Shown here one piece after another: positions 5,595-64,000 of a DNA stretch of 64,000 nt. Origin of the DNA: a virus; the IMG/VR virus record IMGVR_UViG_3300026875_000002. The stretch is one strand, 5' to 3'. The position numbers and the translations under genes were made by a program. The notes beneath the pieces were generated by a model. The model ran no database searches and had not been told where the DNA came from. It worked only from the letters and a program-made list of their open reading frames with translations. Every line of letters starts with the position of its first letter. Positions within the stretch are counted from its first letter, which is position 1.

Positions 5595-5962
5595 TGATAA
5601 CACACGAAGGATTAATGAAGATTTATAAACAAGAAATGGGACGAGCAAAATTGGCGGAAGTCCCATCAACATTCTATGAGGACTGCCGAGATATTATACG
5701 TAGAACCACTGAGGCCTATAAGAAAACATTAAATCCCCTCCAAAGAAGGTTAATCAATAATTACACGAATATCATAGCACAAATACAAACCAGAAGATAT
5801 GAAAAAATAGTTTATGCTGCACTAAATGAAAAAACGTTACAATATATGGTAGGAAGTGAAAAAAACCTCTACCATGACATAAAGAAATTTAATGAGAATA
5901 AAGAGAATATAACAGAAGGAGAAGAAAATGATACAAAATTCAACATACACTACAGCAGATAA
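5594..5962 (+). CDS. GINS-family (Gins15/51 A-domain-like) protein
   Basis: LMKIYKQE..KLAEVPSTFYED..IQTRRYEKIV..EKNLY matches the archaeal GINS helical domain; RBS GGAGG. Confidence 0.65.
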   Translation: MITHEGLMKIYKQEMGRAKLAEVPSTFYEDCRDIIRRTTEAYKKTLNPLQRRLINNYTNIIAQIQTRRYEKIVYAALNEKTLQYMVGSEKNLYHDIKKFNENKENITEGEENDTKFNIHYSR

Positions 5963-7152: not shown

Positions 7153-7232
7153 ACTCTTTTATTTTTATGAGAATATAAAAATACATAATAAAACAATAAC
7201 TTACTATATGTAAAAATTAAGGAGGGACTAAC

Positions 7233-7811
7233 ATGATACATATAGAAACAAGAAGTGTGTTATTTGTAAGAGGATATAGTGATGAGTTATTTAAATATCA
7301 GTATACTTCAAAAGAAAAAATGATTCTAGAAGATGACTCATATATTACACGACGAATAGACTCTACAAATCCTAGTGGAACATGGAATTACTATAATAAA
7401 AACAATAAATTCATAAGAAAAATACCAATAGAGGAATATCCATTTAAAGGAGTAATACCCGAGAATGGAGATGAAGAAGATGATCAATATGGAGTAATAT
7501 ATTTTGCAGATGTAGACATAACCCTAAAGGATTTTAAAAAAGAAAAATTAGACATAACCATGCTTAAAAAAGTACAAGAAAAAATAAATAAACAAATTAC
7601 TCTTTCAAACTTAGAAAAAGGTTTGAAAATATTCTTCTTAAAAACCATTGAAGAAGGAGAAAAAGGATGGTGCCCTAATGATCGTTGGTTACCTTGTACT
7701 ATTTGTAGTTTATTTAACGATCTTGACAAGACTAATGCAAGGATTAATGATAAATTTTGGGATTATTTAATGAATAATCTTGACACAATCTATGAATTAT
7801 CTCAATCATGA
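7233..7811 (+). CDS. Hypothetical protein
   Basis: 192-aa ORF with RBS AGGAGGG. Confidence 0.8.
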   Translation: MIHIETRSVLFVRGYSDELFKYQYTSKEKMILEDDSYITRRIDSTNPSGTWNYYNKNNKFIRKIPIEEYPFKGVIPENGDEEDDQYGVIYFADVDITLKDFKKEKLDITMLKKVQEKINKQITLSNLEKGLKIFFLKTIEEGEKGWCPNDRWLPCTICSLFNDLDKTNARINDKFWDYLMNNLDTIYELSQS

Positions 7812-7961
7812 ATGAAAAATATATTTTTCTCCCATCCTTCAACAATTTTCTTTTTTTTAAAATCGTTACATGTAGAGTGATGGGAGATAGTTAATCATAA
7901 TGTATGGTTATCTTAAAAGCGGTAATAGTATAGAAATAGAAATGAAAACTTGGAATCAAAA

Positions 7962-8336
7962 ATGAAAATATACAACAAACCCGGAAGAGAACACAACACA
8001 AACAATGAAGAACCCATGAAAAAAGGAATAACAAAAGTAGACAATGGATACACAATACGACACACAATCAACGGAAAGACATACTACTATGGATGCTACA
8101 AAACACTAGAAGAAGCAACAAAGATAAATCATAAACTACTCACAACAGTAAAAGACATAAAACTATACAGCACACAACACACAAAATTACACGGAAAAAA
8201 ATACAAACAAAAAATAATAAGAGAATTATGTGGAAAAAAAGAAAACACAAATGTAAATGGTGCGGAAAAACATACTACCGCAGACAAAAAAACACACAAT
8301 ACTGCAGTGAAGAATGCAGAAAACAAGGAACATTAG
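7962..8336 (+). CDS. AP2-like DNA-binding protein (3' part overlaps next ORF)
   Basis: GITKVDNGYTIRHTINGKTYYYGCYKTLEEA is AP2-like. Confidence 0.6.
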   Translation: MKIYNKPGREHNTNNEEPMKKGITKVDNGYTIRHTINGKTYYYGCYKTLEEATKINHKLLTTVKDIKLYSTQHTKLHGKKYKQKIIRELCGKKENTNVNGAEKHTTADKKTHNTAVKNAENKEH

Positions 8337-8491
8337 AAAAAAACCGAAAACGTGTAGAAAAATACAGAAAAAAATATCCACAACAACAAGTAGGAACAAG
8401 CAACATAAGCCAACACAGAAACAAGGAAAATGATAATAACAAAGAACAAAACATCATAGAAAAAGAGAAAAGAAGAATTCATATCAAATAA
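8228..8491 (+). CDS. Zn-finger protein (CKWC..YCSEECR), possibly fused to upstream ORF by -1 shift
   Basis: Cys pattern; paralogous to 6766-7152. Confidence 0.7.
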   Translation: MWKKRKHKCKWCGKTYYRRQKNTQYCSEECRKQGTLEKNRKRVEKYRKKYPQQQVGTSNISQHRNKENDNNKEQNIIEKEKRRIHIK

Positions 8492-8510
8492 AATTACTAC
8501 ACTTTATACA

Positions 8511-8585
8511 TGTGTATGGAAGTATATGCATATAATGACTAACCAATTAATGGTTTGGTGGTTTGAATCCACCCCTACACAACCA
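8511..8585 (+). ncRNA. Degenerate tRNA-like element (75 nt, ends ACCA)
   Basis: T-arm GGTGG-TTTGAAT-CCACC; acceptor TGTGTA/TACACA; AACCA/TGGTT arm; non-canonical D arm and loops. Confidence 0.4.
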
Positions 8586-8708
8586 TTTTATATGAATGAT
8601 ACGTACCAGTACTAATTGGTTAAAAATGTGTTGTAAAAAAGGCACAGCGTATCCCCTAAGAATAAAACATGATCTTATAAAAAAAAGTAGAATTGGAGGT
8701 AATAAAAC

Positions 8709-8915
8709 ATGACAGAAATACCTAAAGCACCAATAACAAGAATAGTAAAAAATGCAGGAGCAGAAAGAATAAGCAAAGAAGCAGAACAAAAAATAGTAGA
8801 AGCAGTAGAACAATACACCAATAAACTAGCATTAGCAGTAATAGACCTAGCAAAACACGCAGACAGAAAAACAATACAAGTAGAAGATGTAGAACTAACA
8901 CTCAAACACTTCTAA
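8709..8915 (+). CDS. Archaeal histone (HMf-type)
   Basis: EIPKAPITRIVKNAGAERIS..LAKHADRKTIQVEDVELTL; RBS GGAGGT. Confidence 0.95.
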   Translation: MTEIPKAPITRIVKNAGAERISKEAEQKIVEAVEQYTNKLALAVIDLAKHADRKTIQVEDVELTLKHF

Positions 8916-9063
8916 AACCTCAACTCCTAAATTCACCCCCTCACAAAAAAGTTACTTTTCGTTACATGATACATATGAAGATAATAAAAAATAGTAAATG
9001 ATATCATGCACGTTGGAGTAACAGGACACAACAAGATAACAAAAATCTTTTGATGAAAAATGA

Positions 9064-9525
9064 TGGTAACGACAGGATAATATAAAAATAATAATAATAA
9101 TAATGATTATTTCATTAAATTTCTTTGTAAAAAGGAAACAAACTATACAATAGTAAAATTATAATCTAATCAAATAAAAAAAAGTGATATCTACACTAGT
9201 AGAAAAGTATGAACTGTAAACATAAAGAAAAATTGAAACCGAGTCCTATTTTTCTTTGGATAAAGCTGATGAAGAGTAAATATTATTTTGATTATAAAAC
9301 AGATTATACCAGACCCCTAGTTGTAAATATTATTTTCATACGTCTAGTCCTGGTTGATATTTTATATTACAGCAGACGCATAATCCCCCTTAATGGATAT
9401 ATTTCTATTGTATACTAGTGAATTTATTTAATATTGAATAAATTATACTCATAGTTTAGTATATTAAATTAGTATATTAAAAATAATGTAAAAAAAAAGT
9501 TGGGGGTTCGATTCCCCCGTTACCA
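9064..9525 (+). ncRNA. Candidate structured ncRNA with tRNA-like 3' end
   Basis: Nested 8-11 bp helices in 9144-9444; T-arm GGGGG-TTCGATT-CCCCC at 9502-9518. Confidence 0.4.
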
Positions 9526-9565
9526 AATAAATCCTTTACGAGATAATTTCAATGAAGATTCAAAA

Positions 9566-9766
9566 ATGACAGAAAAAGAAGTGAAATACAAGAAAATATA
9601 CGTAAAAGTATGTCCAGAATGTAGAAACACGATCTTCAAAAAGGATTACTCCAGAAATGAAGTATACTGTAGTGCTTGTGGACTGGTATTAATAGCTCCT
9701 CCCGTATCAGGAATTATAACACCAGGATTCAAGATAATTACAATAAAAATACCTATATTAAAATAA
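9566..9766 (+). CDS. Stand-alone TFB/TFIIB-type zinc-ribbon protein (66 aa)
   Basis: CPECRNTIFKKDYSRNEVYCSACGLVL matches the TFIIB N-terminal ribbon; ATG at 9566 preferred over TTG 9500. Confidence 0.8.
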   Translation: MTEKEVKYKKIYVKVCPECRNTIFKKDYSRNEVYCSACGLVLIAPPVSGIITPGFKIITIKIPILK

Positions 9767-9780
9767 AATTTATTAGATGC

Positions 9781-9812
9781 TCCCATTTAGTTGTGAAAAA
9801 CTAGGGGGAGCT
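9781..9812 (+). terminator. Hairpin after TFB-ribbon gene
   Basis: GCTCCC..AGTT-GTGAA-AACT..GGGAGC stem followed by TTATTTT. Confidence 0.4.
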
Positions 9813-9859
9813 TATTTTCTGTAACACAAGCAGATTACCATATTTTTTAATTCTCTCTT

Positions 9860-10370
9860 ATTATTAAGAGTCTCCAAAGGGAGTCTGTGGAGAAAGTAAA
9901 ATGGTTAAAATACGTTGGATATATTTTTTTTGAATAGTATTGGGAGAAAAAGAAGAATATTTCATAAAAAAAAATTTAGGGGAAATCATCATGTTTCAAG
10001 GAAAAAGTATCCATATCCTAGCATGGAAGAGATCTATACGTGGAATTAATGAATGAATCAAAATGGTTTTTTTTATAATAAATGTTTTTTTTAAAGTTGT
10101 AAATTTTTATCAGAGAAAATTATCGTTATATGTTTTTTCATCACCCTGTGAAAAAAAGTAAAAGTAGTCTTTGCTGCAATTATGCTACGTCAGTAATAAA
10201 TATTTAACAGTATATTATGTATCCTTGAAAAAAAAGAAAAAGGGAAATCCCCCCATAATTTCCTTATCATTTGTTCCTATAATCTCCCATTTGTATGTTC
10301 ATTCCACCAGGACATACTCACTATTCAAATATATTAGGAAATAACCATTTATTTTTCACCCTCCTTAATT
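9860..10370. ncRNA. Candidate large structured ncRNA (strand unknown)
   Basis: Five perfectly nested long-range helices of 6-10 bp; no ORF of 60 aa or more. Confidence 0.45.
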
Positions 10371-10517
10371 TTATTAAATGATTTTCTACTTGGGAGTTTA
10401 AAAGTTACTCCGAAAATCAAAATACCCTAATCACCCCCCCCCCCAAGGAAGAGTATAACAGGCTGAATCCATATGTACGTGAACCGAAGAACAGGTCAAA
10501 GAATCACAGACCACGAA

Positions 10518-10622
10518 ATGAATAAGAAACTAAAAAATAATCCCCACTACACACACCCATACTCAAATGAAATCACAATAGAACATGAAACGTGGACCTA
10601 TATAAAAAGTAGGCTAGACTAA
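10518..10622 (+). CDS. 34-aa mini-ORF resembling N-terminus of 11183-11536
   Basis: MNKKLKNNPHYTHPYSNEIT vs MKKKIKNNPYLNEIT. Confidence 0.35.
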   Translation: MNKKLKNNPHYTHPYSNEITIEHETWTYIKSRLD

Positions 10623-10624
10623 AA

Positions 10625-10969
10625 ATGAAATATATTTCAAAGCTAAATAAGAAGTATTGTATTTACAAATGGTGTAATGGGAAAAATGTGTATTTTGGAA
10701 CATTTAACACACTAAAAGAAGCCCAGAAATATAGGGATTTCCTAATAAATCATGATTGGGATTTAAAGTATAGGAAAAGAAGTCCACGAAAATATAATCT
10801 CCCAAAATATATCTATAAGAAACCTGGGGAAGACATGTTTATTATCAGGAAAACAGTGGATTATCAGCAAGTACATCTTGGTTATTATAAAACATTACAA
10901 GAAGCCATTAAAGAAAAAGAGTTCTATGAGAGTATCAACTGGGATTTAGACTTACTCGACTTATACTAG
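10625..10969 (+). CDS. Tandem AP2-like domain protein
   Basis: Two repeats of KYI..Y/FII.K......F/LG.F/Y.TL.EA....L/F...W. Confidence 0.7.
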   Translation: MKYISKLNKKYCIYKWCNGKNVYFGTFNTLKEAQKYRDFLINHDWDLKYRKRSPRKYNLPKYIYKKPGEDMFIIRKTVDYQQVHLGYYKTLQEAIKEKEFYESINWDLDLLDLY

Positions 10970-11182
10970 ATTTTAACCCTTATTTTATTGGATTTTATGA
11001 TTATGTGGGGATATAATAAATTATAATTTTTTCAACAAGATCATACAAATACACTTCCCCCCATGTATTATAATATTAAGAGGTAAAAAAAATACAAGGA
11101 ATATCCACCAAATCCACTTAAATAAACTATTCACCATTAATTATTAAGAATATCTAATTAATCTAGAGGGAGAACCCCACAA

Positions 11183-11536
11183 ATGAAGAAAAAAATAAAA
11201 AATAATCCATACTTAAATGAAATAACATTCCAAACATTCACAGACACATACAAACGTAAACATGAAAACAATGAATTATACACACAACAATACCATCAAC
11301 TCACAAAAAAAATAGCACAATACCTACAAACCCCCCACCAAAACATAATAATAAACATACCCGACAAAATAATCACAATAAACATAGAACAAGACAGACT
11401 CATACTCCTAACACTACAAAAACTAACAGAACTAACAGAATACCTCGGAGTAGAAGACATCCGCATCTACACCCCAAGTAGAAACACACTCATAATAAAT
11501 TACAACAATAAAGAAGAAGAGGAAAAAGACACATGA
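11183..11536 (+). CDS. Hypothetical protein
   Basis: RBS GAGGGAG; ATGA overlap with next gene. Confidence 0.7.
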   Translation: MKKKIKNNPYLNEITFQTFTDTYKRKHENNELYTQQYHQLTKKIAQYLQTPHQNIIINIPDKIITINIEQDRLILLTLQKLTELTEYLGVEDIRIYTPSRNTLIINYNNKEEEEKDT

Positions 11537-52486: not shown

Positions 52487-53629
52487 ATGTCAACACAAAC
52501 AAAAAAGAATAATATACAAACAATATATAATGATGAACTCTTTAAAGAGTTTTGTATATTAAGAAATTTAAAACAAAGTAGTATAAAATCATACGCAGTA
52601 GTGTTAAATAGTTATGTAAAAGTACAGCAAACAGATTTAACAACACTTATAAATGAAGCAGATGAAGAAGAAGAACAAAGAATAAGACTAAGCAAAAGAA
52701 AAATTAAACGACGTTTAAATAAGTACAAAATAGAATTACAAAAACAAAAATTAAGTGACAGAACAATAAATGATAGAATTACAAAAATAAGAACATTTTA
52801 CTCACAATTTGACATAACTCCTCCAAAAATAACAAGAAAACCAGTGAAAAACATAGAAACATATAAACAAATAATCACACCAGAACAAATAAGAAAAGCA
52901 GTAAACACGAGTAAAAATAATAAAACAAGAGCATTAATATTATTTATGGCATCATCTGGAACAGCAGCAAAAGAAACAAGTAATATAACAATCAAAGATT
53001 TTATTGAAGCAACAAGCGAATATCATAATGAAACAAGAATAGAACAAGTAATATATGCATTAAAAAATAGAAAAGATATTATTCCAACATTTACAATTAT
53101 CAGACAAAAAACACAAACTCCTTATTTCACATTCTGCACACCTGAAGCAACACAACAAATATTAATTTATCTCACTGAAGAATTAATGAAAAGAGACTTA
53201 AAAGAAGACGATAAATTATTTAATATTACTCCTCAGAGTATACAAACAAATTTTGAAAGATTAAATGATTGTTGTGGGTTTGGATGGAAAAATAATCATT
53301 GTCGTTTTTTTCATAGTCATGGTTTACGAAAAATGTTTGGATCAAGAATGTTTGATGCAGGATTATCAGAGTTAACTATTGATTTCTTAGAGGGACGTAG
53401 TATAGGAGCAACTCGTCAAGCGTATTATAAGCCAAAACCTGAAGAATTAAAGAAGAAATATGTTCGAGTATTGAATACTGTTAGTTTTTTTAGTGATGTT
53501 GAGTATCATGATATTACCTCTGAAGAAAAAGAAGAGTTATTACAGTATCGTGAAAAAGAAAAAGTGAGGGATGAAAAAATTAATAATTTAGAACGTATGT
53601 TGCAAGATTATTTACGTTCTTCTTCATAA
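52487..53629 (+). CDS. int: Tyrosine recombinase/integrase
   Basis: SAM-like N-terminus; HSHGLRK, FLEGR, QAYY; first catalytic Arg position reads SSGTAAKE. Confidence 0.9.
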   Translation: MSTQTKKNNIQTIYNDELFKEFCILRNLKQSSIKSYAVVLNSYVKVQQTDLTTLINEADEEEEQRIRLSKRKIKRRLNKYKIELQKQKLSDRTINDRITKIRTFYSQFDITPPKITRKPVKNIETYKQIITPEQIRKAVNTSKNNKTRALILFMASSGTAAKETSNITIKDFIEATSEYHNETRIEQVIYALKNRKDIIPTFTIIRQKTQTPYFTFCTPEATQQILIYLTEELMKRDLKEDDKLFNITPQSIQTNFERLNDCCGFGWKNNHCRFFHSHGLRKMFGSRMFDAGLSELTIDFLEGRSIGATRQAYYKPKPEELKKKYVRVLNTVSFFSDVEYHDITSEEKEELLQYREKEKVRDEKINNLERMLQDYLRSSS

Positions 53630-54860
53630 TTCCTTTTTTAGTATTTTAGTTATTATTTCTGTTTGGGTTTGGTTTGTTTCGTTGAGTTTTATTCCAAATT
53701 CTCTGAGTATGTCCCATGCTAATCTTATGTTTTTTGTTTTTGTTATTTTTTCTACGATTAATTCTATTACTTCTTCTTGTATTGGTATATTAAATGCTAT
53801 GTTACATCGTTCTTTTATTATATGTGTGTATTGTTCTCTATTGTATGGTTTGAAGTATACTTCTCGTGGGGTGAATAGTGTATTTACTTCTTGTTCAAAT
53901 TGATATTTGAATTCTTGACTTGTTATGATAGGATATATTCCTACTATTATGTTGTAACTTTCGTTTACTCGTGTTAGTTCTCTGATTATATTTTGTGCTG
54001 TGGGGCTTGCCGTGTTTTTGGAACCTAATAGGTAGTTTGCATCATCTAGTGCTATTATTAATGCTTTGTTGGTTTTAGTTAGTTCTTTCATGATTTTTTT
54101 AAATATATTTCTAGTGCTACTTCCAAAGTGTGGGGCTTCTGTATTTAATACTTTTTTGTATATTTGGCCATATATTGTGTAGGGGGTGTTGTGTTTTCTA
54201 CAGTTTATGTATACTGGAATTATGTCTGGGATTGTTTCTGTTATTTCTTGAAATAATTTTTGTATTGCAGTTGTTTTTCCAGTTGCATTGTCTCCTATTA
54301 TTACTGCATGATTGGGTACTCCTCCATAAAGTATGGGGGCTATGTAACTTGCTATTGTTTCCATTTCATTTTCTCTATGGTGGAATTCTCGGGGTATGCA
54401 TTGGGGGTTTAGGTATTTTATGTTTTTGAACACGTTTTTTTCTGTGTATTTTTTAAAGTATGTCATAGTTCTTTTTTTATTTTTTGAGTTATTTAAATAA
54501 AACTTGTCAAGAGCCCTTATTTAGTTGTTATAAAGTCCCCCTCCCCTTTTTTACACTTGCAATTAAAGACTATTGGTAAATTGTACTTTTTATTATAGTT
54601 ACTTATGTAGTGACCTTACATTTAATTGACCATACTCTAAGGGTTTCCAAAGGAATTTAAATATTACTAAAAATAGAATTACTAATTGAAAGGGAACTGG
54701 AGGTGGAAGTTCTTAAAAAAAGAGAGTAATATTAACAATATGAGAAAAAGATAGTACATGTAATATGTGATTAAAAAAAATATGATGAGAATGCAAAAAT
54801 GTATAATTCCTCTTTTTTTTTTAAACTTTCAACACAAACAAAAAAAAGAATAATATACAA
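52490..54860 (+). repeat. ~30-bp imperfect direct repeat (52490-52519 and 54829-54860) bracketing int and cdc6
   Basis: TCAACACAAAC-A6/A8-GAATAATATACAA. Confidence 0.85.
53624..54466 (-). CDS. cdc6: Orc1/Cdc6 homolog lacking C-terminal winged-helix domain
   Basis: LNPQCIPREFHHRENEM, Walker A GDNATGKT, YINCR, Walker B IIALDDAN, FKPYN; only 280 aa. Confidence 0.9.
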   Translation of the reverse strand: MTYFKKYTEKNVFKNIKYLNPQCIPREFHHRENEMETIASYIAPILYGGVPNHAVIIGDNATGKTTAIQKLFQEITETIPDIIPVYINCRKHNTPYTIYGQIYKKVLNTEAPHFGSSTRNIFKKIMKELTKTNKALIIALDDANYLLGSKNTASPTAQNIIRELTRVNESYNIIVGIYPIITSQEFKYQFEQEVNTLFTPREVYFKPYNREQYTHIIKERCNIAFNIPIQEEVIELIVEKITKTKNIRLAWDILREFGIKLNETNQTQTEIITKILKKEL

Positions 54861-55284
54861 TTTGAACAGACAAAATAAATAATTTTCTAATCACTATGTA
54901 CATGTACTTAATAATTTTCATTTCATTATAGTAAAATAATACAGGTAATAGTAATATTCTACTACATGTACTATTTTTGTATAGAGCTACTATAATAATT
55001 AATCGAATAATTTATATATTTTCTTATGATTAAATGATAAAGTACTCATGAAATAATAATCTAAAATTAATGAAAAATGATAAAAATTGGTAAACTTTTA
55101 AAATAGAATGATTTTTTTGGTAAAAAAAGGTAAAATTCGTTTTATTCATTGTCCAACCGACTAAAATTAGAACAATGAATAAAAAATAATGATTAATTAC
55201 CTTAAGTACATATCTATATAAGAAAAGTACTATTGTACTATTTTTTTATTAATACTTTATGTACTTTTTCATTAATTACATGTA
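54755..55284. promoter_or_regulatory. Cluster of TACATGTA palindromes in divergent cdc6/RHH control region
   Basis: Copies at 54755, 54899, 54963, 55277. Confidence 0.5.
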
Positions 55285-55361
55285 TATGTAATTCGTTATT
55301 AATCACTACTTTTACCTTTTAATTATATCAAATAATCTATTTTTCAAAGGGGGTATACAAA

Positions 55362-55946
55362 ATTAAAAATAAACTCATTGGTGCATTAGTCAGTGAAGAA
55401 CAATATAATCATATTCAACAAAATATGCAAAGATATGCTTTTAAAAATATGTCTGAATATGTGAGATCTGCTTTAGATTTTTTTGATGCACGAAGATATA
55501 ATGCATCAAAAAATAATGAGATAGCAATAATACAAGAATGCATTACTATACTTCAACATCATAAGAAAGATGTTGAAAAAAATATGATGCAAGAAACCTT
55601 AAATGAATTGAATGAAAATATTAAAAATCAAAATCATAAAAACGAGGAAACATTAAAGGAATTAGATGAAAACCTAAAACAGAATATTAAATGTTCAGAA
55701 AAGCAAAGCTTAAAGGAATTAGATGAAAATATTAAAAAACAAAAAAATAATAAAAGAGAAAATAGAGTAATTCCTATGGAATCTGTAATTCAAACGCTTA
55801 TTCGAATTACACACGTGAAAGGAAGACCTTCAGATCATGATTTTAGTTTTCAGGCAAAACGATGTGGAAAAAGTAAAAAAGAATTAATTGATTTTTATGA
55901 TGAGAATTATGATTATTTTACGAAAGAGTCTGATAAATACATGTGA
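55362..55946 (+). CDS. RHH/CopG-type regulator with coiled-coil repeats; probable ATT start (first ATG 55425)
   Basis: Frame open upstream giving KLIGALVS-EEQYNHI-MSEYVRSAL; RBS AAGGGGG before ATT; three L-x-EL-D/N-EN-x-K repeats. Confidence 0.65.
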   Translation: MKNKLIGALVSEEQYNHIQQNMQRYAFKNMSEYVRSALDFFDARRYNASKNNEIAIIQECITILQHHKKDVEKNMMQETLNELNENIKNQNHKNEETLKELDENLKQNIKCSEKQSLKELDENIKKQKNNKRENRVIPMESVIQTLIRITHVKGRPSDHDFSFQAKRCGKSKKELIDFYDENYDYFTKESDKYM

Positions 55947-57757: not shown

Positions 57758-58162
57758 ATGATACTAAATGATTTTTTAGGGGATTCTAATAGAATTAATA
57801 TTTTAGAATCCTTTTTAGATAATGAAGGTTACAGTTTAACTCTTGAGGATGTTAGACATATTAGTGAAGTTTCAAATCCATCATCTGATTTAACTATTTT
57901 AGTAAAAATAGGAATACTCTCTGAACGAAATGGAGAATACGAATTAAACCTAAAAGATAAGCGTGTTATTTATTTAAGTTTAATTGATAATGAAGAATAT
58001 TCTAGGAAACTTAAAGAAATGGATAAAACGGGAATTTTTAATGAAGTAAAAACATTCTCTTCTGATATAAAATATATTGAACAAAATTCAGGGGACAAAG
58101 CTACGTTCACGTATTCAGAAGAAGAATCATCTATTAAATCATGTGAATTAGTGAGTACATAG
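57758..58162 (+). CDS. Duplicate of 1-405 (wHTH protein)
   Basis: Identical translation. Confidence 0.55.
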   Translation: MILNDFLGDSNRINILESFLDNEGYSLTLEDVRHISEVSNPSSDLTILVKIGILSERNGEYELNLKDKRVIYLSLIDNEEYSRKLKEMDKTGIFNEVKTFSSDIKYIEQNSGDKATFTYSEEESSIKSCELVST

Positions 58163-58182
58163 TATTATTGATGTGATAAAAA

Positions 58183-58455
58183 ATGAATAAAAATGTTACT
58201 AAAGATATAAATTATGATCAATTTCCTGATGTGGACGATGAATTAGAACAAAAATACGTGAATGGTGGAGGAGTGTTATCTACTCCAAATGAAATCCACT
58301 TGATTTTATTATCTAATCGTATTATTCCTGGAAAACCATTAAGTATCTCAAGAAAAGCAGAAATGGATATTATTTTAACACCGGAAACTGCTGAACAAAT
58401 TGGTCAATTATTAATTTCTGAAGCTCAAAAATATAAAAAATCATCTAAAAATTAG
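58183..58455 (+). CDS. Duplicate of 426-698 (DUF3467-like)
   Basis: Identical translation. Confidence 0.5.
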   Translation: MNKNVTKDINYDQFPDVDDELEQKYVNGGGVLSTPNEIHLILLSNRIIPGKPLSISRKAEMDIILTPETAEQIGQLLISEAQKYKKSSKN

Positions 58456-58464
58456 GAGGATTAA

Positions 58465-58764
58465 ATGTCAAATGAAGAAGAATTTTCTGAATATGAAAAG
58501 AAAGTTCTGATAATTTTGGGTGGTTTGAATATTTCAAAAAATCGTAATGTTCAAAGACAAACAATTTTGAAACGTGTTCCTAATAAAATTCATAAGGAAT
58601 GTAATAAAGCTATTGAGGATTTAATTCGTAAAGGGTATATTGGATATTATAGACGTCCGGATAATTTGATGGTTTCTCAAAAAGGTCGAAAAGTTACTCA
58701 TGATTTAAAAGATGAGGATAATAAAAAGAAATATGGTGATTTACGTATTTTATTGATATTTTAA
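58465..58764 (+). CDS. Duplicate of 708-1007
   Basis: Identical translation. Confidence 0.5.
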   Translation: MSNEEEFSEYEKKVLIILGGLNISKNRNVQRQTILKRVPNKIHKECNKAIEDLIRKGYIGYYRRPDNLMVSQKGRKVTHDLKDEDNKKKYGDLRILLIF

Positions 58765-58901
58765 TTATATAAATTATGATATTTACATTAAAAGATGATT
58801 ATGAAAAATGTACCATCACAATAAAAAAATAATAATATAAGTAAATCAAATTATTCAATTTTTTAAAAAGCAATTGATGATAAAAAAGGGGGGTATTCCT
58901 A

Positions 58902-60074
58902 ATGACATCAGAAATATTAATAATGACACCTAACGCGATTGCAATGGCAGCAGATAGTGTAGTTACAGTAAGTAATAAAAAAACATATGAAGGAGTAAAT
59001 AAATTATTCATGCTTTCTAATAATCCTCCTGTAGGAATTATGATTTATAATAATGCAAACTTTTTTAACTTTCCAATGGAAACAATAATTAAAGATTTTC
59101 GAGAAAAACAAGGAGAACCATGTAAAACTGTTAATGAATTTAAAGCAAAATTTGAAAAATATTTAACTAATATATGTGAATCTAATATTCATCTTTTTCC
59201 TATAGATATAAAAGATGAAATTGATTATTTTATAAGAGATTTTAAAGAAGAAATGCAAAAAAATAAGAATATATTACATAATTGTAATTATGAAAAAAAT
59301 ACATTTGATTTAAATAAATACACAAAAAACGTTAATACTATTAATTTTAATAGTTACTTTGACGAACAAGTAAGAGACTTTGTAAATAACTCAGATGAAA
59401 TCATATTATTAAAAAAAATATTTTTTGAAAATAAAATAAATACCCAATTTACCGGTGTAGTTATTTCTGGATTTAATCAAAAGGATTTATTTCCTTCTTC
59501 AATAAGTTTTAAGATTATACCTATAGATAGCTCATTTATTATAGATCATGTTGAAGAAAACTCTGTTAATAGAGAAACAAGTGTTGTTTTAACACCATTT
59601 GCACAAATTGATACAATAACCAACTTTTTAAATGGTATTGATGAGTCTACTGCTTTTCAAATAATTAATTATTTCAATAAAGTTATTGGAGATTATTCTG
59701 ATAGATTAATACAAGTTATTAATAGTAGTACTCAGGTTAATTCAGGAAAATCACTTAAATTAAATGAAATAACTGATGAAAAAAATAAAATATGTAATGA
59801 TTTTTGCATGTTTATAGATAAATTGAAAGAAGAAAATTATAAGCCTATCATTAAATCAATGGCATCATTACCTAAAGAAGAATTAGCAAATTTAGCAGAA
59901 TCATTGATTAATATTACATCTATGAAATTAAAAGTTCAAGATAATCTTGAAACTGTTGGAGGCGATGTAGATGTTGCATTAATTACTAAAGGTGATGGTT
60001 TTATATGGACTAAACGTAAACATTACTTTGATTCAGAGTTAAATCCTCAATTTTTTAGTAGGCATAATTATTAA
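58902..60074 (+). CDS. Duplicate of proteasome-beta-like Ntn protein
   Basis: Identical translation. Confidence 0.6.
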   Translation: MTSEILIMTPNAIAMAADSVVTVSNKKTYEGVNKLFMLSNNPPVGIMIYNNANFFNFPMETIIKDFREKQGEPCKTVNEFKAKFEKYLTNICESNIHLFPIDIKDEIDYFIRDFKEEMQKNKNILHNCNYEKNTFDLNKYTKNVNTINFNSYFDEQVRDFVNNSDEIILLKKIFFENKINTQFTGVVISGFNQKDLFPSSISFKIIPIDSSFIIDHVEENSVNRETSVVLTPFAQIDTITNFLNGIDESTAFQIINYFNKVIGDYSDRLIQVINSSTQVNSGKSLKLNEITDEKNKICNDFCMFIDKLKEENYKPIIKSMASLPKEELANLAESLINITSMKLKVQDNLETVGGDVDVALITKGDGFIWTKRKHYFDSELNPQFFSRHNY

Positions 60075-60122
60075 TAGAATAAATAAAATATATATTCTTA
60101 ATAGGATGCTGAAGATGATACT

Positions 60123-60365
60123 ATGACTAAATGGATGGAAAAAAATGAAGCTATGAAGGTGGGAAATCTTCCCGTAAATTTTGGGGAAATTCAAGCAAAG
60201 AAGTCTATGGAATCATTAAATAATATTATTGATGATATATTACAGGGAGATCAAGAAGACTCTGATGATTCATATCAGTTTAATGAATCTTTTATAAAAA
60301 CCATAAAGGATAGGGAAAAACAAAAATCTATTGAAATCACTGATTTAAATCAATTATTTGAATGA
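60123..60365 (+). CDS. Duplicate of antitoxin
   Basis: Identical translation. Confidence 0.6.
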   Translation: MTKWMEKNEAMKVGNLPVNFGEIQAKKSMESLNNIIDDILQGDQEDSDDSYQFNESFIKTIKDREKQKSIEITDLNQLFE

Positions 60366-60374
60366 TATGATATA

Positions 60375-60641
60375 ATGTATAGAACAACGTTTAAAGAAGG
60401 TTTTTTAGAGGATACTAAGAAGATTAAAGATAAAAAATCTCAGGAAAATCTTAAAAAGAAAATTGAAGAAATTGCAACTATTTTGGAGTTTAGTCCTAAT
60501 CATTTTAAACCTCTGAAAAAACCTTTGCAGGGGTATTCTCGTGTTCATGTTAATGATTCATTTGTGTTGATTTTTAGAGTTTATTCTGATGATAAGACTG
60601 TTGATTTTGTTAAGTATGCTCATCATGATGAAGCATATTGA
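60375..60641 (+). CDS. relE: Duplicate of RelE-family toxin
   Basis: Identical translation. Confidence 0.85.
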   Translation: MYRTTFKEGFLEDTKKIKDKKSQENLKKKIEEIATILEFSPNHFKPLKKPLQGYSRVHVNDSFVLIFRVYSDDKTVDFVKYAHHDEAY

Positions 60642-61079
60642 TTTACTTATTTTTTTTTTAATTATTTTATTATTATATATAATATAATATAATATAATCT
60701 AATCTAATTTACACTTGAAATTATACTATATGTTTTATTTCTAGTATAACACCTTCCCGCGAATATAGGGGCACCCCTAATGTACATCATGTACATCGTT
60801 CCTTCGAAACAACCATATATTCTTTAAAAAGACAATTAAAATGGCAAGAGAGTATATTTTAATTAAATAAGATGTATATTATCATTAAATTATGTATAAT
60901 CTATTTAAATTTATATTTAATATTTGGATGTACATGATGTACATCTATAAGAAGGGTATTTTTTGGAAAAATAAACTTACATTTGAAATAAAACATGTAG
61001 TAATATTACAAGTGTAAATAAATCAAAACATTTATATAGTACTTCTTTTATATTCTAATATAGTACTATATAGTACTAT

Positions 61080-61268
61080 TTGAATTTAAAGGAAGTGAAA
61101 AAAATTGAAATAAAGAAAACAAGTACGACTATGAAAATTAATAAAACATCTAATGCTTTAAGAACAAATATACCAGTAGATATACAAAAACAAATGAATT
61201 TAACAGAAAAAGATTTGATTTTATGGCATTATGATGGAAAAGATGTTAGAGTGAAAAAAGTAGAATAA
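61080..61268 (+). CDS. Duplicate of AbrB-type regulator
   Basis: Identical translation. Confidence 0.8.
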   Translation: MNLKEVKKIEIKKTSTTMKINKTSNALRTNIPVDIQKQMNLTEKDLILWHYDGKDVRVKKVE

Positions 61269-61413
61269 ACTAACAACTTCCAAATTACAAGTTTATTCTA
61301 CTATTGATACATTAAAATAGCAAAAAACTATAGTAATGTAATTACTATTTTTATTAATTACATTACTTATAATTTTTTACTTATTTTTTGATGTGTCCAT
61401 TAGGAGGCATATT

Positions 61414-61755
61414 ATGTCTTTAAAACAGTGTCGATTAAATATGGAAGCAGATTTGTGGAACAAGTTTTCTGAAGTATGTCGAAATGAGAATACGAACTTC
61501 TCTGAAAAAGTCAGAGAACTCATCACCAATTATATTAACACGAATACAGAGGAAACCGTGGACCTCAGTGAAGTCTACGACCTCATAGATAGGATCGTCC
61601 AAAGGAGTGGTCATATCTCTGTAGAATGTATACAAAGAAACACCACCACAGGACAAGAACAAGCAGTACTCAAGTACTGCAAACAAAAAAATTACCCAAT
61701 CGTATCCGAGAAATGGTACGAGGAAGGACGCGCGCACAAATGGGAAAACTGGTAA
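61414..61755 (+). CDS. Duplicate of RHH protein
   Basis: Identical translation. Confidence 0.65.
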   Translation: MSLKQCRLNMEADLWNKFSEVCRNENTNFSEKVRELITNYINTNTEETVDLSEVYDLIDRIVQRSGHISVECIQRNTTTGQEQAVLKYCKQKNYPIVSEKWYEEGRAHKWENW

Positions 61756-61790
61756 CCACAAATTGAATTGAATTATAGAAGGGGAGACTC

Positions 61791-62297
61791 ATGAATGAAT
61801 GGAACGAATTCAAAAAAGAAATAACCACCAACATAAAAAAACTACAAAAAAAATACAACCAGGAGGGCAACACAGAAATAAACACCCTCCTAAGAAAACT
61901 ACAAAGACAAAAAAACTACAAAGAAATAAACACACTACGAAGAGAACTATACACACAAATAGACAAACACATTACACCCGAAATACACCTAATATGCAGT
62001 GTCAACCGTAAAACCAAAGATGGAATAATCTACGAATCAATAAACCCACAAATAATAGAAGACATCACAGACAAAAAAATCAGAGAACTAATAGAATATC
62101 AAAGACAATACTGCCACGATGAACGCTACAACATAGAATTCATCATGGAAAAAGGCATACTAAACAATAGTCAATATGGATCATACACAACCATAGAAAA
62201 AAGAGACTGTACTCAGTATGTTATGGGATTACTGGAAAACCTAGAATTCCATACAGCATATGAACAATACACCCAGCAAGGAGTTGCACAAGAATGA
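61791..62297 (+). CDS. Duplicate of 4034-4540
   Basis: Identical translation. Confidence 0.75.
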   Translation: MNEWNEFKKEITTNIKKLQKKYNQEGNTEINTLLRKLQRQKNYKEINTLRRELYTQIDKHITPEIHLICSVNRKTKDGIIYESINPQIIEDITDKKIRELIEYQRQYCHDERYNIEFIMEKGILNNSQYGSYTTIEKRDCTQYVMGLLENLEFHTAYEQYTQQGVAQE

Positions 62298-62586
62298 AAA
62301 ACCTAGACAGATGGAGTACTAGTATGAAGTTAGAAGAAAAATTAATCTTTAAAATATTAAGAAAACTAAAATTACTTGACCAGAGGGATATTAATACATT
62401 CTTCAACTAAACTAAAGGGAGAGGTATTATGTATAGTAAATTAGTTGAATTAAATAAAATTCGGACAGCTATACTCTATGGAGAAGTAAACTATGAATAT
62501 TACACATACTGGCTACATAAGTATGGTAAATATTATACTAAAAAAGAATTAAAAGAATTAGAAAAATTATACAGGAAGTGGGAATA

Positions 62587-62811
62587 ATGAATACAAAAAC
62601 AATATACAATGCATTATTACGAAACTATAAAGACTTTTTAGAAGTATATCATGCTATAGAAAAGGAAATAGACAAATATGAGAAAAAAGATTCCGATAAA
62701 TATCATGAGGATATTTATCACCTTAACGCTCAACATTACCTATTAAACCCGTTAAAAAAGGAGTATCAGAAAATACTTCAAGAATTCAAGGAAAGCTACG
62801 AGGTGGAATAA
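62587..62811 (+). CDS. Duplicate of 4830-5054
   Basis: Identical translation. Confidence 0.65.
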   Translation: MNTKTIYNALLRNYKDFLEVYHAIEKEIDKYEKKDSDKYHEDIYHLNAQHYLLNPLKKEYQKILQEFKESYEVE

Positions 62812-62913
62812 TGAAGGGGGATGATGCAGTATTCATAGTAGGACTACTTGCCCTGTTCATCTGTCTATATATAGTGTCAAGGTATCATGCCCTTGCGTTT
62901 TGGTGGTGATATT

Positions 62914-63351
62914 ATGATGGATTACAGTGTGTATATACTCGACTATGAGGAGGAAACGGGCAAGATCATACCTAGCCGGCAGCGTGTGATGCGTTTTCTC
63001 AACTTCGTGCAGACAAAGAATGTTCCCATAACAGAGTGGATCAATACATTCTATGAGTATCAGGATTTATTTTTGGATAAATTAAGTCCAAAATCAAAAA
63101 TAGTATACAGAAGTAATATCATTAGATTCATAAAATACACCATGGAACACTTTCACGGAAAGCAGGAAAGTGTTATACAAGCACATGACCACGGGGAAAA
63201 CACGATATTAAAAAGTGTACTTGAGAAAGAGAAACAAGAGAAACAATCCCTGTCGAAAATTGGTGAAGTTACAAGTAAACCTATACGAAAAGATGAAAAA
63301 AGGAAGAAGAAGCATACTACGAGGATAGTGAATCATTGGAGGTACATATAA
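62914..63351 (+). CDS. Duplicate of 5157-5594
   Basis: Identical translation. Confidence 0.6.
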   Translation: MMDYSVYILDYEEETGKIIPSRQRVMRFLNFVQTKNVPITEWINTFYEYQDLFLDKLSPKSKIVYRSNIIRFIKYTMEHFHGKQESVIQAHDHGENTILKSVLEKEKQEKQSLSKIGEVTSKPIRKDEKRKKKHTTRIVNHWRYI

Positions 63352-63719
63352 TGATAACACACGAAGGATTAATGAAGATTTATAAACAAGAAATGGGACG
63401 AGCAAAATTGGCGGAAGTCCCATCAACATTCTATGAGGACTGCCGAGATATTATACGTAGAACCACTGAGGCCTATAAGAAAACATTAAATCCCCTCCAA
63501 AGAAGGTTAATCAATAATTACACGAATATCATAGCACAAATACAAACCAGAAGATATGAAAAAATAGTTTATGCTGCACTAAATGAAAAAACGTTACAAT
63601 ATATGGTAGGAAGTGAAAAAAACCTCTACCATGACATAAAGAAATTTAATGAGAATAAAGAGAATATAACAGAAGGAGAAGAAAATGATACAAAATTCAA
63701 CATACACTACAGCAGATAA
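63351..63719 (+). CDS. Duplicate of GINS-like protein
   Basis: Identical translation. Confidence 0.65.
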   Translation: MITHEGLMKIYKQEMGRAKLAEVPSTFYEDCRDIIRRTTEAYKKTLNPLQRRLINNYTNIIAQIQTRRYEKIVYAALNEKTLQYMVGSEKNLYHDIKKFNENKENITEGEENDTKFNIHYSR

Positions 63720-64000
63720 AATACACAATGAATCTCACATATATAAGAAGATTCAAAGAGGAAAAAAGTATTTCCTCAACTCCAAAGTAAAACAATCTGG
63801 AAGAAACAACTTCCAGAAATACAACTACTTTGAACTAGGAGATATAGAACCAATACTCCTAGACTTCTGTGAAAAAGAAAACATCACTACTCGTTTTAAC
63901 TTCACGCGTAGTGAAGCACTCCTTATCATACGAGATGAGGAAACAGGGGAAGAAGTATACTATAGTATACCATTACCCGTAGTTGAAACAAAAGATCCCA
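63685..64000 (+). CDS. Duplicate of ERF gene (cut by window end)
   Basis: Matches 5928-6243. Confidence 0.8.
   Translation, partial: MIQNSTYTTADKIHNESHIYKKIQRGKKYFLNSKVKQSGRNNFQKYNYFELGDIEPILLDFCEKENITTRFNFTRSEALLIIRDEETGEEVYYSIPLPVVETKDP

What the first reader, a model, noticed from the sequence alone, without database searches (positions are those of the whole stretch)
8492..10450. Synthesis: 2-kb locus interleaving structured RNAs with histone and TFB-ribbon genes
Seen: in an otherwise densely coding genome, about 1.5 kb of non-coding DNA is concentrated here and much of it is pairable, with two tRNA-like pieces, directly before the late operon. Inference only: an RNA-plus-protein module for host takeover or the early-to-late switch, with tRNA-like ends acting as processing signals for RNase P/Z. 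This is the best candidate for an undescribed system.
Basis: inference. Interest (0 to 1): 0.75.

Follow-up and report, generated by a model that had tools for sequence, protein, structure and literature searches.

The report
tRNA-like elements beside viral TFB-ribbon gene
A virus of the gut methanogen Methanosphaera carries stripped-down tRNA look-alikes (acceptor stem plus T arm, no anticodon) in the gene-poor stretch before its structural genes. They recur with compensating mutations in related viruses next to a mini transcription-factor gene, so they are probably RNA signals or small RNAs handled by the host's tRNA-trimming enzymes.

Summary
The window is a wrapped circular 57,757-bp tailed virus of Methanosphaera. 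The locus is real. It holds 1,573 nt of ORF-free DNA in three blocks, a histone gene (PF00808), and a 66-aa TFB zinc-ribbon-only gene (PF08271). It also holds the genome's only two T-arm motifs. "Much of it is pairable" holds only for discrete elements.

The tRNA-like pieces belong to a family not matched above threshold in Rfam and not found in the papers I could search. A member has a 7-bp acceptor stem, an A-A-A-G-G motif, an AT-rich interior of 21-431 nt with no anticodon arm, a T arm and a discriminator A. I found about 35 members in related proviruses and viral contigs. They form arrays of 1-6 and are always co-oriented with a ribbon gene, usually 50-1,300 nt downstream of it. In 10 members retrieved without requiring pairing, 79 of 80 free stem positions pair.

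They are not att sites, not copies of host tRNA ends and not hidden intron-bearing tRNAs. tmRNA function is unsupported.

Best reading: RNA-level tRNA "top-half" mimics cut by RNase P and tRNase Z. Expression is untested. The histone is a recent host capture, not part of the conserved module. The window's own three elements are atypical members. This scan noted comparable tRNA-framed elements in haloarchaeal proviruses.

The parts
8228..8491 (+). 87-aa CxxC...CxxC zinc-ribbon ORF directly upstream of the first tRNA-like elements
   Evidence: ORF list. 63% identical to its homologue in L001. phrog_13750, 7e-9.
8511..8585 (+). W-a: atypical tRNA-like element. It has a 6-bp acceptor stem (TGTGTA/TACACA) with one unpaired C. 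Its T arm is 8557-8573 (GGTGG TTTGAAT CCACC). It ends with an encoded A-CCA (8582-8585).
   Evidence: Read directly from the sequence. T-arm scan. Weak end-to-end match that draws the acceptor, a hairpin and the T arm. The stretch AATTAATG plus T arm is shared with L001 element 5864-5921. ARAGORN and Rfam call no tRNA here.
8598..8656 (+). W-b: three-way junction with a 7-bp acceptor-like stem (GATACGT/GCGTATC) followed by CCC. It is the orthologue of L001 5864-5921, but its second hairpin has lost the T-loop motif.
   Evidence: Fold: -16.2 kcal/mol, z -3.2, 0 of 200 shuffles as stable. L001 has the same closing stem, and its first hairpin has a different sequence but the same shape. The 3' flank is 91% identical over 23 nt.
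8709..8915 (+). Archaeal histone gene (68 aa)
   Evidence: PF00808, 1e-15. HMfA/HMfB, 1e-15. 72-88% identical to single histone genes in ten Methanosphaera MAG contigs. The flanks of those genes carry no other homologue of this virus.
8945..8967 (+). Promoter-like motif AAAAAAGTTACTTTTCGTTACAT, one copy of the recurrent AAAA(G/T)CGTTACAT motif
   Evidence: CGTTACAT occurs four times in the genome, always on the + strand and always intergenic, ahead of early genes. It sits at the same positions in L001 and L147. It is 100% identical over 23 nt to L001.
9064..9526 (+). W-c: tRNA-like closure of a 431-nt AT-rich interior. The 5' strand TGGTAAC (9064-9070) is followed by GACAGGA. The T arm is 9502-9518 (GGGGG TTCGATT CCCCC). 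The 3' strand is GTTACCA (9519-9525) and the discriminator is A9526. The element ends 39 nt before the ribbon start codon.
   Evidence: The unconstrained fold closes with exactly this stem, z -3.2. T-arm scan. Acceptor search. My estimate is that the long-range 7-mer match alone has about a 10% chance of being coincidence; the adjacent AGG motif lowers that.
9566..9766 (+). TFB/TFIIB zinc-ribbon-only protein (66 aa)
   Evidence: PF08271, 34.2 bits against a cut-off of 29. Best solved match 1pft. Homologues upstream of TerS/TerL in L001, L147 and L148. Small stand-alone ribbon ORFs occur in many Methanobacteriaceae genomes; where a TerL match was recorded on the same contig, it lies 1.6-4.5 kb downstream.
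9779..9819 (+). Terminator-like hairpin (GCTCCC...GGGAGC) followed by TTATTTT, after the ribbon gene
   Evidence: Read from the sequence. The window 9760-9879 gives z -3.5.
9924..10092 (+). Cluster of three T8 runs on the gene strand (9924-9931, 10067-10074, 10085-10092), likely transcription stops separating the ribbon unit from the next unit
   Evidence: Three of the eleven T8-or-longer runs on the + strand of the genome lie here. The other runs I placed also lie in intergenic gaps after gene blocks.
9855..10375 (+). ORF-free stretch with nested long-range complementarity (for example 9889-9907 with 10342-10360)
   Evidence: Fold z -1.9, 3 of 100 shuffles as stable. Inverted repeat I19. No homologous sequence in relatives, so there is no comparative support.
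10473..10622 (+). 49-aa ORF; real gene that sits elsewhere in the relative (L001 8381-8560)
   Evidence: Similarity of the two translations read by eye, not scored.
10625..10969 (+). 114-aa protein with a DNA-binding domain of the kind fused to phage HNH endonucleases (AP2-like)
   Evidence: phrog_99 positions 220-282, 7e-10. No Pfam hit.

Best explanation
The tRNA-like pieces are members of a virus-borne family of anticodon-less tRNA 'top-half' mimics. A typical member has six parts:
- a 7-bp acceptor stem
- a short A-A-A-G-G stretch where the D arm would be, possibly supplying the G18/G19-type contacts to the T loop as in the tmRNA tRNA-like domain
- an AT-rich interior of free length and sequence
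- a 5-bp T stem with a canonical T loop
- the 3' acceptor strand abutting the T stem
- a discriminator A

Shown: the helices are kept by compensatory change, the interior is not conserved, and the elements are co-oriented with and linked to a TFB-ribbon-only gene ahead of the late genes.

Inferred: they are transcribed with the neighbouring genes or as short arrays. Host RNase P cuts at their 5' side and tRNase Z after the discriminator. This would release stable tRNA-framed small RNAs and define the ends of the flanking messages. In this window W-a and W-b would separate the zinc-ribbon ORF message from the histone message. W-c would be removed from the leader of the ribbon mRNA, leaving a 39-nt 5' UTR.

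The rest of the spacer is ordinary: a terminator hairpin, three T8 runs and promoter-like motifs that insulate the early side from the late operon. The ribbon-only TFB may act on RNA polymerase (as a competitor or adaptor), but nothing here tests that.
For: - T arms are confined to this locus.
- Related loci carry elements with abutting 7-bp acceptor stems: L001, L147, L173 (four in a row), L175, L191, L192, L233 and IMG/VR contigs L234-L239 with arrays of 1-6.
- Unbiased test: 10 distinct elements were retrieved by a pattern that fixes only 4 of the 12 pairs. They pair at 79 of 80 free positions and show 7 different acceptor sequences.
- On alignment A7, 8 of 12 pairs show changes on both sides, against 36-53% pairing when the partner column is slid. 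Those rows had been chosen by pairing.
- Orthologues L147c, L173_4 and L233 differ by compensated changes.
- Within sub-families the top half is 78-100% identical, while interiors are 30-77% identical against a shuffled baseline of 49%.
- All ten loci with both features have the element on the ribbon gene's strand, 50-1,300 nt downstream of it. In the window it lies just upstream instead.
- Terminal elements of arrays are followed by T6-T12 runs.
- Rfam models align the elements end to end as tRNA (29.5 bits) or as tmRNA tRNA-like domains (25.7 bits).
- Archaeal t-elements are cut by RNase P and tRNase Z and release flanked RNAs in vivo (PMC4326828).
Against: - There is no expression or end-mapping data.
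- The window's own elements are atypical. W-a has a bulged acceptor and a TTTGAAT loop. W-b has lost the T loop. W-c has a U1-A72 stem that closes over 431 nt.
- Several ribbon-bearing relatives have no element (L148, L174, L176-L190 apart from true tRNAs, L241-L244).
- Arrays of four to six are more than punctuation needs.
- In L001 a hairpin plus T8 run lies about 15 nt before element L001c, which is awkward for read-through transcription.
- GAAAGG is also the BRE of host tRNA promoters, so an internal-promoter reading of that motif is not excluded.
Confidence: 0.55

Rival explanations
1. Trans-acting tRNA mimics. The elements are made as small RNAs that receive CCA and perhaps an amino acid. 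They would act on host machinery that reads the acceptor/T-arm half of tRNA. Examples are decoys for tRNA-targeting defence nucleases or toxins, sponges for synthetases or the CCA enzyme, or amino-acid carriers. In this reading, processing is only their biogenesis.
For: - Sub-families with the same acceptor sequence and T stem recur across different viruses, like isoacceptor identities.
- Arrays of up to six exceed what punctuation needs.
- L147c looks like a stand-alone gene, with a BRE/TATA-like AAAAGGATAATATT about 40 nt upstream and a T12 run 14 nt downstream.
- W-a and L001a encode CCA.
Against: - No target is known.
- No G3:U70 or other recognisable identity set was seen.
- The interior is unconstrained.
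- No expression data exist.
- This rival overlaps the best explanation rather than excluding it.
Confidence: 0.2
2. Non-canonical but decoding tRNA genes, for example with large or oddly placed introns, that standard finders miss.
For: Perfect acceptor and T arms. One relative (L234 1855-1941) just reaches the Rfam tRNA threshold, 29.5 bits against 29. Tailed viruses often carry tRNA clusters between early and late genes (general knowledge).
Against: - ARAGORN finds none by default, nor with introns allowed at its default threshold; relaxed thresholds give calls no denser here than elsewhere.
- No conserved D or anticodon arm is present.
- I removed any single segment at any position to leave a 39-47-nt interior. 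This gave ARAGORN calls for 7 of 22 elements, against 6 of 22 for controls with shuffled interiors.
- Interiors range from 21 to 431 nt.
Confidence: 0.07
3. Decaying remnants of an ancestral viral tRNA gene cluster with no present function.
For: - The window's own copies look degraded: W-a has C56 changed to T and a bulge, and W-b has lost the T loop.
- Presence among relatives is patchy, and number and position turn over quickly.
Against: Neutral decay would hit stems as much as interiors. Instead, 79 of 80 free stem positions pair and changes are compensated, while interiors are at noise level. T-loop positions 54-58 keep the tRNA consensus in nearly all members.
Confidence: 0.07
4. Attachment (att) sites or scars: copies of the 3' ends of host tRNA genes used by the viral integrase.
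For: Integrases often target tRNA 3' ends (general knowledge). The virus has an integrase-like gene at 52487-53629 (PF00589, 1.8e-5, below the curated cut-off).
Against: - No host sequence within 3 mismatches of the 3' halves of W-a, W-c or the GGTTCTG type was found in 24 Methanosphaera genomes.
- The element is internal in the integrated provirus G004:C113, about 14 kb from the integrase end. Viral genes lie on both sides and non-viral flanks lie beyond.
- Both acceptor strands are present.
- The elements form arrays.
- In the window the integrase-like gene is about 14 kb away around the circle.
Confidence: 0.03
5. tmRNA-like RNAs that enter stalled ribosomes.
For: The architecture matches: acceptor, reduced D loop with GG, and T arm closing a variable interior. 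The Rfam tmRNA model aligns relatives end to end (25.7 and 20.2 bits) and the permuted model scores 26.9 bits.
Against: - The scores are far below the gathering threshold of 47.
- No element has G3:U70.
- SmpB was not found in any of 24 Methanosphaera genomes, three of which (G001, G004, G013) carry elements, while 10 bacterial controls were positive.
- ARAGORN's tmRNA search found nothing.
- Interiors as short as 21 nt cannot hold a tag frame.
Confidence: 0.02

Closest known systems
Haloferax volcanii t-elements (tRNA-like elements, e.g. upstream of 5S rRNA; Hölzle et al. 2008 and 2012 as cited in PMC4326828)
   Same: Both are archaeal tRNA-like structures that are not tRNAs. They are embedded next to other RNAs and are recognised by RNase P and tRNase Z, so that flanking RNAs are released. 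This is the mechanism proposed here.
   Different: The Haloferax elements are cellular, single and haloarchaeal. The elements here are viral, sit in arrays of 1-6 and have sub-families with conserved acceptor identities. They also have interiors of 21-431 nt, a conserved AAAGG motif and linkage to a TFB-ribbon gene. Cleavage is untested here.
tmRNA tRNA-like domain (Rfam RF00023 / RF04321)
   Same: The 5' and 3' ends form an acceptor stem stacked on a T arm. The D arm is reduced to a short G-G-containing stretch right after the 5' strand. There is no anticodon arm and the interior is variable.
   Different: No G3:U70, no SmpB in the host genus, no recognisable tag frame, and scores well below threshold. 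The resemblance is of architecture, not membership.
Canonical tRNA genes and phage tRNA clusters
   Same: Acceptor stem, T stem and loop consensus, discriminator base, tandem arrangement with short spacers, and a position between early and late genes.
   Different: No D arm and no anticodon arm. The elements are not called by ARAGORN and are at or below the Rfam threshold. They have no counterpart among host tRNA 3' ends.
mascRNA-type tRNA-like 3'-end signals (MALAT1; PMC8457004) and plant mitochondrial t-elements (own knowledge)
   Same: A tRNA-like fold embedded in a longer transcript is cut by RNase P and RNase Z to make the ends of the neighbouring RNA.
   Different: Those are eukaryotic or organellar and are single elements. 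There is no sequence relationship.
tRNA-framed RNA modules in haloarchaeal proviruses noted earlier in this scan (e1-5855918, e1-5800857; AI notes, unchecked by me)
   Same: Tandem tRNA-like units without a normal anticodon arm, in non-coding leaders of archaeal tailed proviruses.
   Different: Different host phylum and a different genomic position (ahead of replication genes). Some keep complete tRNA bodies. I did not compare the sequences.

Membership tests
Canonical tRNA | 7-bp acceptor stem and a 5-bp T stem with a T54-Psi55-C56-R57-A58 loop | tested here: met
   W-c and about 35 relatives meet it. W-a meets it only approximately: 6 bp plus a bulge, with loop TTTGAAT.
Canonical tRNA | D arm and anticodon arm with a 7-nt loop; called by tRNA finders or reaching the Rfam RF00005 threshold | tested here: not met
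   ARAGORN finds 0 genes in the window and relatives, also with introns allowed. No RF00005 match in the window at E up to 10. The brute-force intron removal test did no better than shuffled controls.
tmRNA | Rfam RF00023 gathering score; G3:U70 alanine identity | tested here: not met
   Best scores 25.7 bits against 47 in relatives. In the window only a 17-nt T-arm match. No element has G3:U70.
tmRNA | SmpB partner protein in the host or the virus | tested here: not met
   PF01668 found in 0 of 24 Methanosphaera genomes, which include provirus-bearing ones; 10 bacterial controls were positive. The window's own proteins were not all scanned for SmpB.
t-elements (tRNA-like processing signals) | tRNA-like acceptor/T-arm fold embedded beside other RNAs | tested here: met
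   Structure and covariation. W-a and W-b lie between two ORFs, and W-c lies in the ribbon leader.
t-elements (tRNA-like processing signals) | Cleavage by RNase P at the 5' side and by tRNase Z after the discriminator | not testable with these tools
   This needs enzyme assays or end-mapped RNA-seq.
Phage att site in a tRNA gene | Sequence identity with the 3' part of a host tRNA gene | tested here: not met
   0 matches at up to 3 mismatches in 24 host-genus genomes for three element types.
Phage att site in a tRNA gene | Located at the provirus-host junctions | tested here: not met
   The element is internal in provirus G004:C113.
TFB/TFIIB (for ORF 9566-9766) | N-terminal CxxC...CxxC zinc ribbon (PF08271) | tested here: met
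   34.2 bits against a cut-off of 29. 1pft match. The four Cys are invariant in five homologues.
TFB/TFIIB (for ORF 9566-9766) | B-linker and two cyclin folds that bind TBP and DNA | tested here: not met
   The protein is 66 aa and only the ribbon matches. Host full-length TFBs of about 336 aa match only over ribbon positions.
Archaeal histone (for ORF 8709-8915) | Histone fold of HMf type over its full length | tested here: met
   PF00808 positions 1-63 of 65, 1e-15. HMfA residues 1-68, 9.5e-16.

The most novel reading that the evidence does not exclude
Methanogen viruses encode a multi-member family of anticodon-less tRNA mimics with isoacceptor-like acceptor identities. These would be matured by host tRNA enzymes, receive CCA and possibly be aminoacylated. 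They would act in trans, for instance as decoys against acceptor-end-targeting defence or toxin systems or as non-decoding amino-acid carriers. They would be co-inherited with a ribbon-only TFB that retargets RNA polymerase at the early-to-late switch. Together with the haloarchaeal cases noted in this scan, this would make tRNA-framed RNAs a general feature of archaeal tailed viruses.
Probability: 0.15. Interest if true: 0.9.

Novelty: new variant of a known kind. Interest (0 to 1): 0.68.

Why it matters
RNA elements of archaeal viruses are almost unexplored. This is a structurally well-supported RNA family in viruses of gut and rumen methanogens. It is absent from Rfam at threshold, and I found it in no paper I could search. 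It points to viral use of the host tRNA-maturation machinery. That would be either a compact way to cut polycistronic messages and stabilise small RNAs, or mimicry of the half of tRNA that many enzymes and defence toxins read.

The family is easy to test: about 90-130-nt RNAs, with defined cleavage sites. It could also provide natural tRNA scaffolds for RNA expression in methanogens. The conserved pairing with a TFB zinc-ribbon-only gene just ahead of the late genes gives a concrete handle on how these viruses time transcription.

Tried and rejected
- Phage database search (blastn, distant mode) with 7800-11300: no match.
- No whole genome is held for the window.
- IMG/VR scans with the histone, the ribbon, the 117-aa protein and the 87-aa protein found only one relative contig.
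- Pattern GATACGT...GCGTATCCCC in IMG/VR gave 38 hits. All were chance matches except the same relative.
- The first genome-contig scan with TerL found nothing because the patterns were narrow. The genome search then found proviruses.
- Covariance model R1, built on full-length elements, depended too much on the interior. It missed the short-interior training members and W-c, so I did not use it for distribution.
- The pattern GAAAGG...GGTTCRAWTCC in 301 family genomes mostly hit true tRNA genes behind their GAAAGG-TATA promoters. Only five hits were elements, all in Methanosphaera genomes, most beside viral genes.
- The metagenome scan with the ribbon alignment gave eight loci. Seven were scanned and none held an element; the eighth (L245) is the G004:C113 provirus stretch already analysed.
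- The block GGGAAAAATCTTTGCACCA is shared only by L147 and L173 and was not pursued.
- ARAGORN at relaxed thresholds gives 17 calls per genome and is uninformative.
- The AP2 label is not supported by Pfam. Only a PHROG match to the DNA-binding part of HNH endonucleases supports it.
Full report
**What the window is.** The first 6,243 bases repeat exactly at 57,758-64,000, so the window is a circular 57,757-bp genome read past its end. All long ORFs but one lie on the + strand.

- It encodes TerS (phrog_6299, 2.7e-14), TerL (PF04466/PF03237), an ERF recombinase, an integrase-like protein (52487-53629) and a Cdc6-like ATPase on the minus strand.
- The host is Methanosphaera. The histone is 72-88% identical to single histone genes on ten Methanosphaera MAG contigs. 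Related proviruses sit in Methanosphaera genomes.
- The virus is not in the phage collection. IMG/VR holds one close relative, L001.

**The observation.** The ORF-free blocks are 8492-8708, 8916-9565 and 9767-10472, 1,573 nt in all. A further 213 nt lies at 10970-11182. The 69-aa ORF 9209-9418 has no family hit.

- The histone (PF00808, 1e-15; HMfA 9.5e-16) and the 66-aa TFB zinc ribbon (PF08271, 34.2 bits against 29; 1pft) are confirmed.
- A scan for a 5-bp Watson-Crick stem around TTYRANN finds two sites in the whole genome, 8557-8573 and 9502-9518. Both are on the gene strand and both have GC-rich stems in a genome of roughly 30% GC.
- General pairability is weak. Of 69 overlapping 120-nt windows, three reach z below -2.4. 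As wholes, 9060-9530 gives z -3.2 and 9855-10375 gives z -1.9.
- ARAGORN and Rfam at gathering thresholds find nothing.

**Anatomy in the window.**

- W-a (8511-8585) has a 6-bp acceptor stem, an irregular middle, the T arm with loop TTTGAAT, and an encoded A-CCA.
- W-b (8598-8656) is a three-way junction closed by GATACGT/GCGTATC, with z -3.2.
- W-c closes 431 nt between TGGTAAC (9064) and GTTACCA (9519). The latter abuts the T arm GGGGG-TTCGATT-CCCCC and is followed by A9526. The unconstrained fold finds this closure.
- W-c ends 39 nt before the ribbon start codon. It lies about 100 nt downstream of a promoter-like motif (8945-8967).
- That motif recurs ahead of early genes here and in relatives.
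- After the ribbon gene come a terminator-like hairpin (9779-9819) and three of the genome's eleven +strand T8 runs. Part of the spacer is therefore ordinary insulation between transcription units.

**Relatives.**

- L001 shares 67-89% DNA identity with the window over the flanking genes. It has two tandem histones and the ribbon gene.
  - Its element L001a (5864-5921) has the same acceptor stem as W-b, the T-arm context of W-a, and ends C-CCA.
  - Its element L001c (7153-7255) lies downstream of the ribbon gene.
- The integrated provirus in G004:C113 (L147; TerL 70% identical) has the ribbon gene. After about 460 nt comes an element with GGTGTTG/CAACACC, the T arm TGGGG-TTCAATT-CCCCA, a discriminator A and a T12 run.
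- G013 (L173) has four elements in a row downstream of its ribbon gene. G004:C25 (L175) has two. G277, G295 and G001 have one each.
- A pattern scan of IMG/VR found six more viral contigs with arrays of one to six.
- A more distant relative (L148; TerL 49%) and several metagenome loci keep the ribbon gene with no spacer or element.
- The histone occurs only in the window and L001.

**Is the structure selected?**

- Ten distinct elements were retrieved by a pattern that fixes the AAAGG motif, the T loop and only four of the twelve pairs. They pair at 79 of 80 free positions and show seven different acceptor sequences.
- On alignment A7, eight of twelve pairs change on both sides. Sliding the partner column drops pairing from 100% to 36-53%. 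Those rows had been picked by pairing.
- Orthologues differ by compensated changes: GGTGTTG, GGGTTTG and GGAGTTG with their matching 3' strands, and TGGGG, TGTGG and TGAGG with theirs.
- Within sub-families the 32-nt top half is 78-100% identical. Interiors are 30-77% identical against a shuffled baseline of 49%, and their lengths run from 21 to 431 nt.
- T-loop positions follow the tRNA consensus.
- Selection therefore acts on the acceptor/T-arm half of a tRNA shape and on little else.

**What they are not.**

- *Not att sites.*
  - No Methanosphaera genome (24 searched) has a sequence within three mismatches of the 3' halves.
  - The element is internal to an integrated provirus.
  - Both acceptor strands are present.
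- *Not hidden tRNAs.*
  - There is no D or anticodon arm.
  - Removing any single segment to mimic an intron gives ARAGORN calls no more often than with shuffled interiors, 7 against 6 of 22.
- *Not tmRNA in function.*
  - The tmRNA model aligns relatives end to end, but at 25.7 bits against 47.
  - There is no G3:U70.
  - SmpB was not found in the host genus, with positive bacterial controls.
- *Not host repeats.* In 301 family genomes the motif pattern otherwise hit true tRNA genes behind GAAAGG-TATA promoters.

**Mechanism.** A 12-bp acceptor/T-arm stack, an elbow-forming T loop and a discriminator are what RNase P and tRNase Z read (established knowledge). In Haloferax, tRNA-like t-elements are cut by both enzymes and release flanked RNAs in vivo (PMC4326828).

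- I therefore infer that these elements are transcribed and cut out. This would yield tRNA-framed small RNAs and set the ends of the neighbouring messages.
- Close packing in arrays (18-27 nt spacers), T-runs after the last element, strict co-orientation with the ribbon gene in ten of ten loci, and intercistronic or leader positions in the window all fit this.
- Whether the released RNAs also act in trans is open. Sub-families with conserved acceptor identities hint at it.
- The ribbon-only TFB is conserved just ahead of the late genes in many Methanobacteriaceae proviruses. It could compete with or adapt host TFB at RNA polymerase. That is inference only.

**Limits.**

- There is no transcript evidence. 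Two tools that could have supplied closer relatives or reads were unavailable.
- The window's own elements are atypical members.
- By my estimate, W-c's long-range closure alone has roughly a one-in-ten chance of being coincidental.
- The Medvedeva et al. compendium of methanogen viruses is not in the searchable library. Prior description there cannot be excluded.

**Verdict.** The locus is real and the tRNA-like pieces belong to a well-supported, apparently undescribed viral RNA family linked to a TFB-ribbon gene. The processing-signal idea is the best-supported mechanism but is untested. The histone is a passenger recently taken from the host.

Noticed in passing
window 6711, 7864, 8960, 56040 (also L001 3679, 5175, 6482; L147 minus strand 6972, 6215): A motif AAAA(G/T)CGTTACAT, often followed by ATAATA, sits in intergenic DNA ahead of early genes. 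It is always on the gene strand and is conserved in position in relatives. It is probably a virus-specific BRE/TATA-type early promoter or an operator.
   Followed up: partly
window 8709-8915; L001 6001-6207 and 6231-6434: The viral histone is 72-88% identical to single histone genes of Methanosphaera MAGs whose flanks are not viral, which suggests recent capture from the host. The closest relative carries two tandem, diverged histone genes (84% and 43% identical to the window's).
   Followed up: partly
window 54467-55424: This is the largest ORF-free gap of the genome (958 nt, very AT-rich, with several T8/A8 runs). It lies next to the minus-strand Cdc6-like ATPase gene and is a likely replication origin.
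   Followed up: no
window 9855-10375: Nested long-range complementarity (for example 9889-9907 with 10342-10360, and 9914-9942 with about 10318-10338) encloses about 330 nt. The fold gives z -1.9 only, and there is no homologous sequence in relatives.
   Followed up: partly
window 10473-10622 versus L001 8381-8560; window 10516-10577 versus 11181-11227: The small 49-aa gene sits at a different place in the closest relative. Its middle part is repeated at the start of the 117-aa gene (direct repeats D2 and D10). This indicates module shuffling around the locus.
   Followed up: no
G004:C113 about 14.3-78.0 kb (L147, L151, L152): This is an integrated relative of the virus in a Methanosphaera MAG, with a different gene order. 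After the tail genes come a second MuF-like gene and homologues of window genes 1145-2884. The integrase is at the opposite end. No tRNA gene was found within 14 kb of the integrase end.
   Followed up: partly
L238 8179-8260 and L239 572-490 (minus strand): A compact 72-nt tRNA-like element with a D-arm-like hairpin, a 7-bp stem carrying a 5-nt loop in place of the anticodon loop, and T loop TGCAACT. ARAGORN does not call it.
   Followed up: no
host genomes, e.g. L214, L215, L217, L229: Methanobacteriaceae tRNA genes are preceded by GAAAGG directly followed by TTTATATA-like boxes. The same GAAAGG follows the 5' acceptor strand of many viral elements, which leaves an internal-promoter reading of that motif open.
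   Followed up: partly
L185 8920-9000 and L181 1418-1340 (minus strand): Elements with normal interior length (41-45 nt) and D-loop-like sequence, probably true tRNA genes, lie within about 2-5 kb of ribbon genes in other Methanobacteriaceae genomes. They served as positive controls for the element-finding script.
   Followed up: no
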